Shown here one piece after another: positions 14,252-31,374 of a stretch of DNA of 64,000 nucleotides. Where the stretch lies: contig CAZSWA010000001.1 of NCBI GenBank assembly GCA_964610465.1, forward strand, positions 15,023 through 79,022, written 5' to 3'. The notes under the pieces are model-generated. The model saw only the letters and a list, made by a program, of their open reading frames with translations. It was not told the DNA's origin and did not search any database. Position 1 is the stretch's first letter. Each line of letters starts with the position of its first letter. Source of the DNA: an uncultured Gammaproteobacteria bacterium (GTDB lineage Bacteria; Patescibacteriota; Microgenomatia; Levybacterales; UBA12049). Made by a program: the position numbers and the translations under genes.

Positions 14252-14791
14252 TTATTCAGATTTAGTAATATCTCTATATTTTTCCAAAAGTTTTCTTATT
14301 TTTGGATCAATAACTACCTGGCAATAAGGGTAGGTGCGGTTGTTATCATAAAAATCCATATGATAGTCTTCAGCTTTATAGAAATTGGTAAATGGTACAA
14401 TTTGGGTAACAATCGGATCTTTATAGACTCCTTCTTTTTCAATTTTCTTTTTGGATTCTAAAGCTTCCTTTTTCTGTATTTCATCATGATAAAAAATGAC
14501 TGAACGGTATTGAGTCCCTACATCATTCCCTTGTCGGTTAAGAGTAGTCGGGTCATGTAAGTGCCAGAAAATTTCCAAAAGCTTGTCATATGAAATACTA
14601 TTTGGATCAAATTCAATTTGTATTGCCTCAGCATGACCTGTGGTGCCAGAAGATACTTCTTTATAGGTTGGATTCTCTTTGGTGCCACCTGCATAGCCAG
14701 AAGTTATAGATATAACTCCTTTTAGTCTTTTAAATATTGCTTCTGTACACCAGAAACATCCGCCTGCAAGTGTTGCTTTTTGTGTTTCCAT
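14252..14791 (-). CDS. msrA: peptide-methionine (S)-S-oxide reductase MsrA
   Basis: 179 aa. Active-site GCFWC motif (LAGGCFWCTEAIF), GYAGG. Confidence 0.85.
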   Translation of the reverse strand: METQKATLAGGCFWCTEAIFKRLKGVISITSGYAGGTKENPTYKEVSSGTTGHAEAIQIEFDPNSISYDKLLEIFWHLHDPTTLNRQGNDVGTQYRSVIFYHDEIQKKEALESKKKIEKEGVYKDPIVTQIVPFTNFYKAEDYHMDFYDNNRTYPYCQVVIDPKIRKLLEKYRDITKSE

Positions 14792-14792
14792 A

Positions 14793-15555
14793 TTACTTTC
14801 TTAACTCCATTTTGCATTTTGTACAAATTCCAAAACTGTGACTTACAAAATAATCTCCATAATCATGCAATTTAAAATCCTGAATTTGTGCAACTAAATC
14901 AAAAAGTGCTTGCTCCAACTCTGATGTATAGTCAATCGCAAATTCTTTTTGTGGATATTTCAGTATCCCGTATGTAGGGCGCATACCATAATTCTCCTCC
15001 ACTAAGTGACAATATGCAATAAGCTGCATTACATGATTTTTATAAGGAGTAAGAGGAGTTTTTCCTGTTTTTATTTCAATTGGGATTATACTTTTTTTCT
15101 TCTTGATAAGATAATCAGGTTTGCCAATAAGAGGCAAAAGAGAGGATTCAAGAATACTTCCTGGTATTTGTGTTGAATCCTGATAAATAAGTTTTCCTTG
15201 TAAACTTCCCATGCTTCGTCTTTTCAAAAAAAGCATTAAGTTTAGGAGCAGACAAACTAATAGGAGAAAAAACGATATGAGAAAAAGATAAAAAAGTATA
15301 GATTAAAATTTAAAAAATAATTGTAATAGAAACAGTATGGCAACAAAGAGTAATAAGCAAAAGGTAGATACAAAAAGAATTACTTTCAGTCGTGCAAATT
15401 TTATGAGTCTTATGGCGAGGGCATCATGGTAGAGAGTACCTTTGTACATCTCATCATTTACTTCACGCAGTGCATGGAGTCCTTTCCAGAAACACTGTCT
15501 ACAATAAATAAACTCATTAATCTTGCTGGCTTTTACAATAGTTTTGGCAGTCACA
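14793..15555 (-). pseudogene. Cas4-like (DUF83, RecB-family PD-(D/E)XK) nuclease, apparently split into N-terminal (15303-15555) and C-terminal (14793-15236) fragments
   Basis: N-fragment has the Cas4 N-terminal Cys motif (INEFIYCRQCFWKG). C-fragment has RecB nuclease motifs D (PDYLI), ExK (IEIKTGK), QxxxY (QLIAYCHL) and terminal C-x2-C. The two are separated by about 20 out-of-frame codons rich in A/T homopolymers. Confidence 0.5.
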
Positions 15556-16003
15556 AGTAGGCTCTATTCTAATACAAATTTTTGACACTGCAAATCGAAG
15601 AAAGTTATTTTTCTTCTCTCTTAATTTCTACTCCCCCTATATCATCTCCTGTAAGATTCTGTCCATGTAATTTCTCATCAGCAATACTACCGATTTGAGG
15701 CAGAGATACTCTCTTTTGTTGTTTTCCACCTTTTGTATTTTTCTTCTTTTTATATTTTTGCATATAAAAATTTTACAAAGAGCAGTTATGATTTTAAAAA
15801 ATGATTGGTAAGAATATCGCAAGAACTAAATTTGTATTTCTCAATATGGTATGTCACACTTTTTGTATGATTCGGAAAATAAAAGGATTGTATCAAGTAC
15901 TTTCTGAGAAAACGCATCGAAATATGGGAACGTATAGGAGTCTTAAGGCAGCAAAACATCGACTGCAACAAATAGAATTTTTCAAATACCTCAAGAAAAA
16001 AGC

Positions 16004-28548: not shown

Positions 28549-30741
28549 TTGCTGCATGAGATTGCCAAACTAAATGGGGTAGTGTATAATATTTTTATGG
28601 ATGGTTCAATTCAGGACATTTTGCGTCCGGTTTCTCCTCAAGAGGCTCTAGAAAAATATACGATAAACCTTACCATAAATGCAAAAGCTGGTAAGATAGA
28701 CCCTGTTGTAGGACGTGAGGTAGAAATCAGACGTGTAATGGAAATCCTCTCACGAAGACTTAAGAATAACCCAATTCTCATTGGTGATCCAGGTGTTGGC
28801 AAAACTGCCATTGTTGAAGGACTTGCACAAAAAATTGTTGAAAAATCAGTACCCACTACTCTACGGGATAAACAAGTTATTGTGTTGGATTTTGCTCAAC
28901 TTCTGGCAGGAGCAAAATTTAGAGGAGAATTTGAAGAGCGTTTAAAAAGCGTTATCAAAGCAGTTGAAGAGTCAAACGGTAAATACGTGGTATTTATTGA
29001 TGAGTTACATACAGTGGTAGGCGGTGGTGCAGCTGAAGGATCAGTCGATGCTGCCAATATGTTAAAACCAGCACTCGCCCGCGGCACTCTTCGTATGATA
29101 GGTGCAACGACAGTCACAGAATACCGAAAGTATATAGAAAAAGATCCAGCACTCGCCCGCCGTTTTCAGCCGGTATTGGTTGAAGAGCCAACAGTTGAAG
29201 ATACTATTTCAATTCTACGTGGCATAAAACAAAAATATGAAGTACATCATGGCATTCGCATCACAGACAACGCCATAATTGCTGCTGCTAAACTTTCCGC
29301 TCAGTATATCCCCCATCGCTTTTTACCGGATAAAGCAATTGATCTTATTGATGAAGCAGCAGCTGCGATAAAGATAGAAACTGAAAGCAAACCTGCAGAG
29401 CTTGACGAATTACACAGACGAATTACACAAATTGAAATTGAACTGGCAGCACTTAAGAAAGAACGATCAGAAATTGCCAAAACAAGGAAGGATCAACAGC
29501 AAAAAGAACTTGAAAAACTTAAGAAACAGGCAGCATCGATTGAAGAACGATGGGCAAAACAGAAAGATATTATTCAACAGATTCAAGATATCCGTGCGAA
29601 AATTGATGCCTATAGGATAGAACTTGATAGAGCAGAGCGGGAGATTGATTTACAGAAAGCTGCGGAAATCAAATACGGCAAAATTCCAGAGCTTGAGAAG
29701 AAATTAAATACACTTATGGAAACTTGGAGCAAAATCCCCTATGAAGAAAAAATTCTACGGGAAGAAGTCGATGATAATGATATCGCCAAAGTTGTTGCAC
29801 GTTGGACTGGCATACCAGTAACAAGAATTTTATCAACAGAGGCTGAAAGACTGCTTCGATTGGAAGAAGAACTCAAAAAGCAAATTACAGGGCAGGATGA
29901 AGCAGTCGATGTAATAGCTCGTGCAATTAGACGCTCACGTTCTGGTCTTTCAGAAAAAAATCGGCCTATTGGCTCATTTTTGTTCTTAGGACCAACTGGC
30001 GTTGGTAAAACAGAAACAGCAAAAGCTCTAGCTCGTATCTTATTTACTGATGAACATGCAATGACTAGAATTGATATGAGTGAATATATGGAGCCACACT
30101 CTGTTGCCCGTCTTATTGGCGCTCCCCCAGGATATGTCGGGTTTGAAGAGGGTGGACAGTTGACAGAAGCAGTCAGACGAAAGCCTTATTCAGTAGTACT
30201 TTTTGATGAGATAGAAAAAGCCAATCCACAAGTATTTAATATATTTTTACAAATATTTGATGAAGGACGGCTTACTGATAGTAAAGGCACGATAGTCGAT
30301 TTTAAGAATACTATCATTATTATGACAAGCAATCTAGGAAGCGAAGTTATTCGAGATTCACAAGCGAAAAACAAAGAAGAACTGAATCGTATTATTTGGG
30401 AAATTCTTAACCGAAACTTCAAACCTGAATTTCTTAATCGTCTTGATGCAGTAGTTATCTATAATGCACTCTCCCCTAAAGATATTTTAAGAATTGCAGA
30501 ACAGCAACTGGAGAGGGTATCTGAGAAGATGAAAGAAACAGACATTGATTTGCATTTTGATGATGATATTGCACTCTACTTTGCTGAAGTAGGATATGAT
30601 CCAGTCTTTGGAGCACGACCTCTGCGTCGCGCAATTGAGGAGAAGTTGGTTGATGAGGTAGCAATGCGGATAATTGAAGGAAGTATCAAGCCTGGTGATA
30701 AAATTACTCCAAAAATTGAGAATGGGAGAATTATACTGTAA
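28549..30741 (+). CDS. clpB: ClpB-type AAA+ disaggregase lacking the N-terminal substrate-binding domain
   Basis: 730 aa. Two Walker A sites ([18 protein letters not shown]), long coiled-coil M-domain between NBD1 and NBD2, ClpB-type C-terminus. Sequence starts directly at NBD1 (alternative start 28597). Confidence 0.85.
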
Positions 30742-31374
30742 ATGATACAAGATAGTATTGCAAAAGATAAAGAGAGATGCCGGACATGTGGAGGGAATCT
30801 TCTACAAAGACAAACACAAAAAAAAGCAGCACAGCTTAAGAAGGCATATTACTATACTGCATACTACTATTGTCCTAGATGTAGAAAAATATTTCTTCAT
30901 GATAAGTTTAAAATAGAAAATAGTCATGATACTCCCCTTTTTTCCTTACACACTGCAATACATGAGAAATTTGATGTGGAAATTTGGACCGATGGTGCCT
31001 GTATCAACAATGGACGGGAGAATGCCAAAGCAGCATGGGCTTTTGTTTCAGGAGATATAGAAAAAGCAGGGCTTGTAATAGGTAAACAAACCAACAATAC
31101 AGCAGAAGCGTTAGCCTTTTACCATGCCCTTTTGTGGGCAGCGCAGAAAGGATACAAAAAGATAAAGATTTACTCTGATAGTCAAATAAGTATTCATAAT
31201 ATGAGAAAAAATGTGGAAGACATCAAACAAAATAGAGAGATATTTGAAAAAATATTTGAAGTGATTGTCAGACATAATCTACAGGTAGGGTTTGAAAAGG
31301 TTGCAGGTCATACAGGTGATGTGAATAATGAACGTGCAGATAAACTTGCCAATCAATTAGCTGGAATAAAATAG
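30742..31374 (+). CDS. rnhA: ribonuclease HI with N-terminal C4 zinc-ribbon extension
   Basis: 210 aa. CxxC...CxxC (CRTCGG...CPRCRK), then RNase H catalytic pattern (WTDGAC...TNNTAEALA...YSDSQ...GHTGDVNNERADKLA). Start abuts clpB stop. Confidence 0.75.
   Translation: MIQDSIAKDKERCRTCGGNLLQRQTQKKAAQLKKAYYYTAYYYCPRCRKIFLHDKFKIENSHDTPLFSLHTAIHEKFDVEIWTDGACINNGRENAKAAWAFVSGDIEKAGLVIGKQTNNTAEALAFYHALLWAAQKGYKKIKIYSDSQISIHNMRKNVEDIKQNREIFEKIFEVIVRHNLQVGFEKVAGHTGDVNNERADKLANQLAGIK

What the first reader, a model, noticed from the sequence alone, without database searches (positions are those of the whole stretch)
14793..15555. Solo Cas4-like (DUF83, RecB-family) nuclease, apparently disrupted, with no CRISPR array or other cas genes
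Seen in sequence: the N-fragment carries the Cas4-type N-terminal cysteine motif (EFIYCRQCFW). The C-fragment carries the PD-(D/E)XK triad arrangement D/ExK/QxxxY (PDYLI, IEIKTGK, QLIAYCHL) and a terminal CxxC. Together they make about 196 aa, the size of a Cas4. They are separated by about 20 codons of out-of-frame, homopolymer-rich sequence. Established knowledge: Cas4 proteins carry an Fe-S cluster ligated by one N-terminal and three C-terminal cysteines, and solo Cas4-like genes occur in phages and outside CRISPR loci. Inference: a remnant of a defence locus or of a prophage, or an active split nuclease. Its placement directly adjoining msrA is unexplained.
Basis: partly seen in the sequence, partly recalled or inferred. 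Interest (0 to 1): 0.55.

Follow-up and report, generated by a model that had tools for sequence, protein, structure and literature searches.

The report
Naturally split, membrane-anchored Cas4-like nuclease
What looked like a broken Cas4 gene is a conserved pair of small genes, each with its own membrane anchor, that together appear to rebuild one Cas4-type DNA nuclease unconnected to CRISPR, an arrangement I could not find described anywhere.

Summary
The gene is not disrupted by out-of-frame sequence. The two parts are in the same frame, separated by one TAA, and the T-rich sequence between them encodes transmembrane helices.

ORF1 (15303-15554, 83 aa) is the Cas4 N-terminal Cys/His motif plus a C-terminal TM helix. 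ORF2 (14793-15299, 168 aa) is an N-terminal TM helix, then KRR, then the Cas4 catalytic core.

The same two-gene layout occurs in 139 of 145 evaluable homologous loci, mostly Chloroflexota/Anaerolineae, and is never fused there. Single-chain versions with the TM hairpin in the same place do exist; the two that carry an organism name are archaeal.

ORF1 and ORF2 match complementary, colinear parts of Cas4. A fused-chain AlphaFold model (pLDDT 91, pTM 0.86) superposes on full-length Cas4. The metal-ligand sets co-vary between the halves.

I found no cas genes, CRISPR arrays or phage relatives. The genomic context is housekeeping.

One oddity is specific to this window. ORF2 lacks a canonical start codon and has ATA at the homologous position, alone among 161 relatives.

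Verdict: a new architectural variant of solo-Cas4. Its biological role is unknown.

The parts
15303..15554 (-). ORF1: an 83-aa small subunit with a GTG start and a TAA stop at 15303-15305. It combines the Cas4 N-terminal motif with a C-terminal TM helix.
   Evidence: Searches give the ORF. TIGR00372 positions 3-43 match at E 0.047. The ORF1 family profile's best PDB hit is Cas4 4r5q residues 56-107. The family has 4,734 clusters, and the best 120 are all 78-85 aa.
15414..15533 (-). Soluble N-terminal Cas4 motif of ORF1 (residues 8-47). It includes C18 (15501-15503), the extra C21 (15492-15494), G39 (15438-15440) and H43 (15426-15428).
   Evidence: C18, G39 and H43 are invariant in the ORF1 alignment A4. 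They align with the YCPR...G..LH motif of Cas4 4r5q and 8d3l.
15315..15389 (-). TM helix 1, the C-terminal tail anchor of ORF1 (residues 56-80).
   Evidence: The maximum Kyte-Doolittle 19-residue hydropathy is 3.07. All 129 ORF1 homologues have such a segment. K+R averages 3.3 before the helix and 0.4 after it.
15297..15305 (-). Junction: the ORF1 stop TAA (15303-15305), TCT, then ATA (15297-15299) at the position of the ORF2 initiator Met in homologues.
   Evidence: Searches show the junction. Of 161 evaluable ORF2s, 160 have ATG/GTG/TTG here and the window does not. The sequence is identical in an independent Logan assembly.
14793..15299 (-). ORF2: the large subunit, 168 aa if started at ATA 15299. 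It consists of an N-terminal TM helix, KRR, the Cas4/PD-(D/E)XK core and a C-terminal CxxC. Canonical ATGs lie only at 15236 and 15212, after the TM helix.
   Evidence: PF01930 and TIGR00372 hits. Homologues of 154-207 aa start at the TM helix. The profile matches PDB Cas4 entries 4r5q, 8d3l, 4ic1 and 7mi4.
15225..15299 (-). TM helix 2, the N-terminal signal anchor of ORF2 (residues 1-25), followed by KRR.
   Evidence: Kyte-Doolittle 19-residue hydropathy is 2.97. In the family, K+R averages 0 before the helix and 3.5 after it. The segment aligns with the TM helix of all homologues.
15012..15116 (-). Catalytic motifs of ORF2: D of GKPDY (15114-15116), E-x-K of IEIK (15075-15077 and 15069-15071), and Q...Y of QLIAY (15024-15026 and 15012-15014).
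   Evidence: These columns are invariant in the 36-sequence alignment A1.
14814..14825 (-). C-terminal CxxC of ORF2 (C159, C162).
   Evidence: The motif co-varies with the CxxC of ORF1.
14252..14791 (-). msrA (PMSR), starting 1 nt after the ORF2 stop. It is probably co-transcribed and is not part of the nuclease.
   Evidence: No terminator-like site was found between the genes. msrA also lies downstream of the pair in L087.

Best explanation
**What it is.** The locus encodes a native two-subunit, membrane-tethered Cas4-family (RecB-like PD-(D/E)XK) nuclease that has no connection to CRISPR.

**The two subunits**
- ORF1 is a tail-anchored 83-aa protein. Its cytoplasmic N-terminal part supplies the first Cas4 helix, with the cluster-ligating Cys and the conserved G..H motif.
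- ORF2 is a signal-anchored 168-aa protein. Its cytoplasmic domain supplies the D/ExK/QxxxY catalytic core and the C-terminal metal ligands.

**How it probably assembles (inferred)**
- The two TM helices pair as a hairpin in the membrane.
- The two soluble parts then reassemble into one Cas4 fold at the inner face of the membrane.
- The metal-cluster site, and probably the active site, are shared between the subunits, so neither half should be active alone.

**What is shown and what is inferred**
- Shown: the split, the TM segments, the complementarity to Cas4, the co-occurrence, the existence of single-chain relatives, and the absence of cas, CRISPR or phage context.
- Inferred: heterodimer formation, the shared Fe-S or metal site, cytoplasmic topology, and nuclease activity.

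**Biological role (speculative, about 0.3).** Housekeeping processing or degradation of DNA ends at the membrane, either in repair or acting on DNA that enters through the membrane.

**This window's copy.** ORF2 has ATA where every relative has a canonical start. It is either initiated non-canonically or by re-initiation after the ORF1 stop, or it has recently lost its membrane anchor.
For: **Conserved split**
- The two parts are in frame, separated by a single TAA, and both flanking segments encode TM helices.
- ORF1 lies upstream of ORF2 on the same strand in 139 of 145 evaluable loci. In 84 the genes are adjacent, often with ATGA overlaps; in 53 one gene lies between them.
- No fused form occurs in these loci.

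**Complementarity to Cas4**
- The ORF1 profile matches Cas4 4r5q residues 56-107, and the ORF2 profile matches residues 79-214.
- A profile of concatenated pairs gives two colinear domains on 4r5q: profile 5-53 to residues 56-108, and profile 135-248 to residues 120-214.

**Single-chain relatives**
- Relatives with the TM hairpin at the same position align colinearly across the junction (query 6-224 to protein 5-236).
- The two that carry a source name are archaeal.

**Structure prediction**
- The AlphaFold2 model of the concatenated window proteins has mean pLDDT 91.2 and pTM 0.86.
- The best PDB match is Cas4 8d3l, over 247 alignment columns, with a TM-score of 0.56 by target length.

**Ligand co-variation**
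- 125 pairs have 1 Cys in ORF1 and CxxCx5C in ORF2.
- 6 pairs have 1 Cys and CxHxxH.
- The window and L002 have CxxC and CxxC.
- The total is always four ligands.

**State of the window copy**
- All family-invariant residues are intact.

**Context**
- No relatives were found in IMG/VR or INPHARED.
- The window is a housekeeping chromosomal region without cas genes or CRISPR arrays.
Against: - No experiment supports assembly or activity.
- The AlphaFold model is of an artificial fusion. Its inter-half signal comes from only 11 single-chain sequences, and the TM segment of the ORF1 rows was misaligned.
- The ORF1-to-Cas4 sequence matches are individually weak (E 0.047 to 0.08).
- Merged, the window protein scores 62.4 bits, below the TIGR00372 equivalog cut-off of 65.
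- Window ORF2 is the only one of 161 without a canonical start before its TM helix, so this particular copy may be impaired.
- The 2+2 Cys co-variation rests on two related loci, which is one evolutionary event.
- The proposed role rests only on synteny (nadK-recN in 116 of 163 loci), which may be lineage history.
Confidence: 0.75

Rival explanations
1. The family is a genuine split nuclease, but this window's copy is decaying. ORF2 has lost its start codon (ATG to ATA), so it is either not made or made only as an anchor-less fragment from ATG 15236 or 15212.
For: - The window is the only one of 161 evaluable ORF2s without ATG/GTG/TTG before the TM helix.
- The first ATG lies after the helix, and that product has no TM segment (19-residue hydropathy 0.73).
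- The database gene call starts at 15212 (139 aa, P0001).
Against: - All invariant catalytic and ligand residues of both ORFs are intact.
- The 22 codons before ATG 15236 stay open and strongly TM-like (hydropathy 2.97). An open stretch this short is expected about 16% of the time by chance (my own estimate).
- ATA is an accepted rare initiator in genetic code table 11, and it sits 3 nt after the ORF1 stop, where re-initiation is plausible.
- An anchor-less ORF2 could still be tethered to the membrane through ORF1.
Confidence: 0.2
2. One reading: a single Cas4 gene broken by a mutation or by junk sequence. On this view it is a remnant of a defence locus or of a prophage.
For: There is an in-frame stop between two Cas4-like parts. 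Solo Cas4 genes do occur in mobile elements (PMC5704561).
Against: - The stop is the native ORF1 stop in 139 of 145 loci, across Chloroflexota MAGs and low-GC relatives.
- The intervening sequence is in frame and encodes conserved TM helices.
- No relatives were found in 2.9 million IMG/VR contigs or 50,697 phage records.
- The neighbours are housekeeping genes.
Confidence: 0.02
3. The pair is an anti-phage or anti-plasmid defence effector. On this view it is a membrane-positioned nuclease that cuts DNA as it is injected into the cell.
For: - Placement at the inner membrane face suits interception of entering DNA.
- Cas4-family proteins occur in defence systems, for example the Argonaute-associated ACE1, which is among the structural matches.
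Against: - Synteny is stable and housekeeping: nadK lies downstream in 116 of 163 loci, with recN nearby.
- The family is not found on phages and is only distantly matched on three plasmids.
- No defence-island neighbours were seen in the loci inspected.
Confidence: 0.12
4. The in-frame TAA and the ATA are sequencing or assembly errors in a single-chain gene.
For: The region is AT-rich with T runs.
Against: - An independent Logan assembly of run SRR12266072 is identical over 411 nt, although it may derive from the same reads.
- Every bacterial homologue inspected is split at the same place.
Confidence: 0.02

Closest known systems
Canonical Cas4 (PF01930 / TIGR00372 / COG1468; for example SSO0001 4IC1, Pcal_0546 4R5Q, type I-C Cas4 8D3L)
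   Same: - The same RecB-like D/ExK/QxxxY motifs.
- The same N-terminal YC..W...G..H motif.
- The same four-ligand metal-cluster pattern.
- The same predicted fold, with Foldseek top hits to Cas4 and a TM-score of 0.56 by target length.
   Different: - It is encoded as two polypeptides.
- About 80 residues, forming two TM helices and a linker, are inserted between the N-terminal motif and the core.
- No cas1, cas2 or CRISPR array lies nearby.
- The window copy has a 2+2 Cys arrangement instead of 1+3.
- It scores below the TIGR00372 equivalog cut-off (62.4 against 65 bits).
Solo-Cas4 of Chloroflexi and CPR bacteria (Hudaiberdiev et al. 2017, PMC5704561) and the biochemically studied Solo-Cas4 of Methanosarcina mazei (PMC12501428)
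   Same: It is encoded outside CRISPR-cas loci. The 2017 survey noted a monophyletic solo-Cas4 in 'many Chloroflexi' and solo-Cas4 in CPR genomes, which is probably this clade.
   Different: That paper contains neither 'split' nor 'transmembrane' and states that short or disrupted sequences were discarded. The M. mazei enzyme is described as purified from heterologous expression and forming a ~318 kDa oligomer (abstract). I did not test whether the 2017 clade and this family are the same.
Single-chain membrane-embedded Cas4 homologues (for example MBI4344301.1 from a Euryarchaeota archaeon and UCH89508.1 from a Thermoplasmata archaeon)
   Same: The order of parts is the same: Cas4 N-terminal motif, TM hairpin, basic stretch, Cas4 core, C-terminal Cys motif. 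They align colinearly with ORF1+ORF2 across the junction.
   Different: They are one polypeptide. Some have 4 or about 8-10 TM helices. They are annotated only as 'Cas4' or 'Dna2/Cas4 domain-containing protein'.
Fe-S RecB-family nuclease domains of AddB, AdnA, Dna2, MGME1 and Exo5
   Same: They share the PD-(D/E)XK core. In several of them (from my own knowledge) a Cys cluster staples the N- and C-terminal parts of the domain together. They appear among the structural matches.
   Different: They are soluble, often fused to helicases, and not split or membrane-anchored.

Membership tests
Cas4 family (PF01930 / TIGR00372 / COG1468) | RecB-type PD-(D/E)XK motifs: D, E-x-K and Q-x3-Y | tested here: met
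   ORF2 has GKPDY, IEIK and QLIAY. These columns are invariant in A1. PF01930 scores 36.7 bits against a cut-off of 22.7.
Cas4 family (PF01930 / TIGR00372 / COG1468) | N-terminal helix with a conserved Cys and a G..H motif | tested here: met
   The feature is present, but on the separate polypeptide ORF1. C18, G39 and H43 are invariant in A4 and align with Cas4 4r5q and 8d3l. These sequence matches are weak (E 0.047 to 0.08).
Cas4 family (PF01930 / TIGR00372 / COG1468) | Four ligands for an Fe-S cluster (1 N-terminal and 3 C-terminal Cys) | tested here: inconclusive
   Four candidate ligands are always present but are distributed over two chains: 1+3 Cys in 125 pairs, 2+2 Cys in the window and L002, and Cys plus CxHxxH in 6 pairs. 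Actual cluster binding cannot be tested here.
Cas4 family (PF01930 / TIGR00372 / COG1468) | Score above the curated equivalog cut-off of TIGR00372 (65 bits) | tested here: not met
   The concatenated window protein scores 62.4 bits and ORF2 alone 53.1 bits. Some relatives pass, for example P0017 at 66.3 and P0220 at 84.9.
Cas4 family (PF01930 / TIGR00372 / COG1468) | Single soluble polypeptide of about 170-220 aa | tested here: not met
   There are two ORFs, each with a TM helix.
Cas4 family (PF01930 / TIGR00372 / COG1468) | Cas4 three-dimensional fold | tested here: met
   The AlphaFold2 model has pLDDT 91.2 and pTM 0.86. The Foldseek top hits are Cas4 8d3l_J and 8d3l_I, E 4e-6, 247 columns, TM-score 0.56 by target length. 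This is a prediction made on an artificial fusion of the two proteins.
CRISPR-associated Cas4 (adaptation module) | Encoded next to cas1/cas2 or a CRISPR array | tested here: not met
   No cas domains were found in the 39 window ORFs of at least 200 aa, plus the 189-aa and 52-aa neighbours. No CRISPR-like repeats were found in the window. In about 1 Mb of 166 related loci there was only one 54-nt-period repeat, in L078. The rest of the genome was not available.
Pseudogene (disrupted Cas4) | Stop codon or frameshift that is absent from orthologues | tested here: not met
   The stop is the native ORF1 terminator in 139 of 145 loci.
Pseudogene (disrupted Cas4) | Loss of a start codon that is present in orthologues | tested here: met
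   ORF2 has ATA where 160 of 161 relatives have a canonical start. The functional consequence is unknown.
Phage- or MGE-borne Cas4-like nuclease | Relatives on viral or plasmid sequences, or a mobile-element context | tested here: not met
   No relatives were found in IMG/VR or in INPHARED. Only three distant plasmid matches at 29.5% identity were found. The window carries EF-G, EF-Tu, ribosomal-protein genes, ClpB and UvrD.

The most novel reading that the evidence does not exclude
The TM hairpins are not a passive tether. Like soluble Cas4 (SSO0001 decameric toroid, from my own knowledge; M. mazei Solo-Cas4 ~318 kDa oligomer, abstract), the pair may oligomerise. The result would be a membrane-embedded ring nuclease that acts on DNA as it crosses the cytoplasmic membrane, during uptake for recombination or nucleotide salvage, or during phage injection. 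Splitting at the outer loop would make nuclease assembly depend on membrane insertion. The tandem multiplication of the hairpin in archaeal relatives suggests that the membrane part has a function of its own.
Probability: 0.12. Interest if true: 0.85.

Novelty: new variant of a known kind. Interest (0 to 1): 0.6.

Why it matters
**A possible lead on an open question.** What solo-Cas4 proteins do outside CRISPR is not well understood (PMC13621843). This clade is very large: 4,734 ORF1 clusters at 90% identity, mostly in Anaerolineae. It is conserved in a fixed housekeeping position and has an unreported architecture:
- A nuclease whose fold, metal cluster and probably active site are divided between two membrane-anchored polypeptides.
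- Single-chain relatives (archaeal where named) that show which parts belong together.

This gives a testable natural example of a split, assembly-dependent nuclease placed at the membrane.

**A practical annotation problem.**
- ORF1 is often not called by gene finders.
- ORF2 is called 'Cas4', which can falsely suggest CRISPR adaptation capacity.
- The pair is easily mistaken for a pseudogene.

Tried and rejected
- **ORF1 homologue search.** Searching the window's ORF1 alone found nothing. A profile of ORF1s recovered from the loci was needed.
- **First locus scan.** It failed on the 36-sequence alignment because no conserved stretch was available. A narrower alignment worked.
- **First permitted model.** The unpaired alignment gave a weaker model (pLDDT 82, with residues 32-43 below 50), because MAFFT placed the ORF1 TM helices on TM2. 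Adding the single-chain homologues improved it.
- **Taxon of the window.** It could not be established.
- **Promoter scan.** It gave no more sites than shuffled sequence, so the TTTGCA-17-TAGAAT site upstream of ORF1 carries no weight.
- **Rfam and tRNA scans.** Nothing was found.
- **Literature.** Four full-text searches (a fifth was rejected for syntax) found no description of a split or transmembrane Cas4. The library is incomplete, so prior description cannot be excluded.
- **Recoding of TAA.** I considered and rejected an alternative genetic code. Long ORFs across the window read normally under genetic code table 11.
Full report
**1. The observation**

On the minus strand there are two ORFs. 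One is 83 aa (15303..15554, GTG start) and contains EFIYCRQCFW. The other is an ATG-started 147-aa ORF (14793..15236) containing GKPDYLI, IEIKTGK, QLIAYCHL and a terminal CTKC.

- The C-part matches Pfam Cas_Cas4 (PF01930, 5.9e-9, above the cut-off) and TIGR00372 cas4 (3.3e-14, profile positions 60-172).
- The N-part matches TIGR00372 positions 3-43 only weakly (E 0.047).
A single-frame translation of 14790-15557 reads straight through both parts, with one stop.
- That stop is TAA at 15303-15305. It is followed by 22 sense codons that spell SILFYLFLISFFLLLVCLLLNL, a transmembrane-type segment, before the first ATG.
- The last 25 or so residues of the upstream ORF are equally hydrophobic.

**2. 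Homologues start where the stop lies**

A search with the concatenated sequence returned 74 proteins of 139-207 aa. Of the 16 retrieved and the 36 aligned, all except the window's own 139-aa gene call (P0001) consist of a TM helix, a basic stretch and then the Cas4 core. They therefore begin at the position of the window's TAA.

Two of their contigs showed a small ORF immediately upstream. In L002 it overlaps by ATGA. In L003 it is an 83-aa ORF ending 2 nt before the start. Both carry the same N-terminal motif plus a C-terminal TM helix.

**3. The split is conserved**

Scans of one-genome-per-species contigs and of JGI metagenomes gave 160 further loci. Nearly all the named ones are Chloroflexota/Anaerolineae MAGs, and a few have low GC.

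I built HMMs for both ORFs and searched six-frame translations. ORF1 lies upstream of ORF2 on the same strand in 139 of 145 evaluable loci:

| Arrangement | Loci |
|---|---|
| Adjacent (overlaps or gaps of a few nt) | 84 |
| One ~210-aa HEAT/ARM-like gene in between | 53 |
| Farther apart | 2 |
| No ORF1 found | 6 |
| Not evaluable (too little upstream sequence) | 18 |

No locus has the two parts in one ORF. The frame relation between the ORFs varies, as expected for separate genes.

A profile search for ORF1 found 4,734 clusters (90% identity) at E <= 0.01. The best 120 are all 78-85 aa, have no Pfam domain, and are named 'Cas4 (RecB family)' by IMG when they are named at all.

**4. The two ORFs are complementary parts of one Cas4**

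- Against PDB sequences, the ORF1 profile's best hit is Cas4 Pcal_0546 (4r5q) residues 56-107. The invariant Cys and G..H align with YCPR...G..LH.
- The ORF2 profile hits 4r5q residues 79-214, and also 8d3l, 4ic1 and 7mi4.
- A profile of concatenated pairs gives two colinear domains on 4r5q: profile 5-53 to residues 56-108, and profile 135-248 to residues 120-214. The roughly 80 positions in between are the two TM helices and a linker, with no counterpart in Cas4.
- According to PMC13621843 (summarising Lemak et al. 2013), His62 of SSO0001 ligates the catalytic metal together with D99, D113 and K115.
- If ORF1 H43 is the equivalent of that His, the active site is composite. This is an inference: I aligned H43 to 4r5q and 8d3l, not to 4ic1.

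**5. Single-chain relatives exist**

An exhaustive phmmer search with the concatenated window sequence found 910 representatives at E <= 1e-3.

- Most of the top 150 are ORF2-like, with the profile match starting within a few residues of the protein's N-terminus.
- Eleven proteins of 243-398 aa align in one stretch across the junction, for example query 6-224 to protein 5-236.
- Their sequences show the Cas4 N-terminal motif, two TM helices, a basic stretch, the core and CxxCx5C.
- About 30 longer proteins (228-635 aa) match only from about query residue 36-92 onward; of the six whose sequences I read, three (P0218, P0224, P0238) have 4 to about 10 TM helices after a Cas4 N-motif.
- Those with source names are archaeal: MBI4344301.1 (Euryarchaeota) and UCH89508.1 (Thermoplasmata), labelled only as Cas4 or Dna2/Cas4.

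So a membrane-embedded Cas4 clade exists. The bacterial branch sampled here is split at the outer loop of the hairpin.

**6. Predicted structure**

- The first AlphaFold2 run, with unpaired ORF1 and ORF2 homologues, gave pLDDT 82 and an uncertain G..H region.
- Adding the single-chain homologues gave pLDDT 91.2 and pTM 0.86, with no segment below 50. It shows two long antiparallel helices (residues 34-80 and 84-113).
- Foldseek against the PDB ranks type I-C Cas4 (8d3l) first. The alignment spans 247 columns with a TM-score of 0.56 normalised to the target.
- The next matches are MGME1, Cas4-Cas1 (7mi4), Dna2, ACE1 and AdnA.
- This supports reconstitution of a complete Cas4 fold with a protruding TM hairpin. 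It remains a prediction on an artificial fusion, and I could not access the coordinates to measure distances.

**7. Ligand co-variation**

| ORF1 motif | ORF2 C-terminus | Pairs |
|---|---|---|
| single Cys | CxxCx5C | 125 |
| single Cys | CxHxxH | 6 (L003, L085, L087, L164-L166; low GC where measured) |
| CxxC | CxxC | 2 (window and L002) |

The total is always four ligands. ORF1 has a second Cys exactly where ORF2 has one fewer. That is what a metal site shared between the subunits would predict. It rests on one lineage, so it counts as one evolutionary event.

**8. Topology**

- All 129 pairs have a 19-residue Kyte-Doolittle window above 1.6 at the ORF1 C-terminus and at the ORF2 N-terminus.
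- K+R averages 3.3 in the 15 residues before the ORF1 helix and 0.4 after it; the tail is about 4 aa.
- K+R averages 0 before the ORF2 helix and 3.5 after it.
- By the positive-inside rule, both soluble parts face the cytoplasm. ORF1 would be tail-anchored and ORF2 signal-anchored. This is an inference.

**9. Context**

- The window is a housekeeping chromosomal region at about 33-37% GC. It carries EF-G, EF-Tu, ribosomal proteins L3/L4/L2/S3, ClpB, UvrD, TIM, TruB, BacA, PilO and two-component systems.
- It has no cas domains and no CRISPR-like repeats.
- About 1 Mb of flanks from 166 related loci contains no CRISPR-like array apart from one 54-nt-period repeat in L078.
- No relatives were found in IMG/VR or INPHARED. 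Only three distant Bacillus plasmid matches were found.
- In Anaerolineae the pair sits in a fixed position. NAD kinase follows ORF2 in 116 of 163 loci, followed by a B-box membrane protein and recN. recQ lies upstream in L020.
- In low-GC relatives the neighbours differ. msrA recurs in L087, and a PIF1-family helicase follows ORF2 in L165.
- msrA in the window starts 1 nt after the ORF2 stop, with no terminator-like site in between. It is probably co-transcribed, but nothing suggests a functional link.

**10. The window-specific anomaly**

- Of 161 evaluable ORF2s, 160 have ATG/GTG/TTG at the start of the TM helix. The window alone has none.
- The codon aligned with the initiator Met is ATA (15297-15299), 3 nt after the TAA.
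- An independent Logan assembly is identical.
- Starting at ATG 15236 would remove the TM helix (hydropathy 0.73).
- All invariant residues of both ORFs are intact.
- Three possibilities cannot be separated from sequence alone: ATA initiation, termination-reinitiation, and a recent loss of the anchor or of the gene. I put about 0.2 on impairment of this copy.

**11. Mechanism and rivals**

The best-supported reading (0.75) is a two-subunit, membrane-tethered Cas4-family nuclease. It would assemble at the cytoplasmic face of the membrane, with the metal site and probably the active site shared between the subunits.

Its role is not established. Stable vertical-looking synteny next to nadK-recN, and its absence from mobile elements, favour housekeeping DNA processing over defence. 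This is weak, association-level evidence.

| Rival | Confidence |
|---|---|
| This copy is decaying | 0.2 (compatible with the family-level conclusion) |
| Defence effector | 0.12 |
| Broken single gene or prophage remnant | 0.02 |
| Sequencing or assembly error | 0.02 |

**12. Novelty**

- Hudaiberdiev et al. 2017 reported a monophyletic solo-Cas4 in many Chloroflexi and solo-Cas4 in CPR genomes. Their text contains neither 'split' nor 'transmembrane', and they discarded short or disrupted sequences.
- Further full-text searches found no description of a split or membrane-embedded Cas4.
- Databases label both halves 'Cas4' automatically.
- I therefore rate this a new architectural variant of a known family. 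The paper library is incomplete, so prior description cannot be excluded.

Noticed in passing
L020 3334-3966 (and about 50 other Anaerolineae loci): A ~210-aa HEAT/ARM-like repeat gene sits exactly between ORF1 and ORF2 in 53 loci. It matches Adaptin_N only weakly, below the cut-off. It is never present in a locus where the halves are adjacent, so it could be an optional third component.
   Followed up: partly
L020 4534-7659 and L012 4458-7576: There is conserved synteny downstream of ORF2: NAD kinase (116 of 163 loci), a B-box zinc-finger membrane protein (101 loci) and recN (90 loci). recQ lies upstream on the other strand in L020.
   Followed up: partly
proteins P0224, P0218, P0238 (not in the window): Single-chain relatives have 4 to about 10 TM helices between the Cas4 N-terminal motif and the core, apparently through tandem duplication of the TM hairpin. 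The only one of these three with a source organism name, P0218 (UCH89508.1), is from a Thermoplasmata archaeon.
   Followed up: partly
L165 1913-3229: A PIF1-family helicase gene lies 40 nt downstream of ORF2 on the same strand in one low-GC metagenomic contig. This nuclease-helicase pairing was seen only once.
   Followed up: no
window 15297-15305: ORF2 has ATA where 160 of 161 relatives have a canonical start codon. It lies 3 nt after the ORF1 TAA. This could be non-canonical initiation or re-initiation.
   Followed up: partly
L001, L002, L164, L166 (gene calls supplied with the contigs): ORF1 is not called in L001, L164 and L166 and is truncated in L002. ORF2 in the window is called from an internal ATG as 139 aa. 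This looks like a systematic annotation gap for the family.
   Followed up: partly
window 15605-15763 (-), with a tandem repeat at 15713-15759: A 52-aa, very basic ORF (rich in K, Q and G) lies just upstream of ORF1 and contains a 17-bp tandem repeat of 2.8 copies. It is called as a gene in the Logan contig and has no Pfam match.
   Followed up: no
window 30742-31374 and 28549-30741: An RNase H gene with an N-terminal extension of about 75 aa starts immediately after the ClpB stop codon.
   Followed up: no
L078 1412-1535: This is the only spaced direct repeat found in about 1 Mb of related loci: a 16-mer at 54-nt intervals, three copies. It is probably a coding tandem repeat rather than a CRISPR array.
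   Followed up: no
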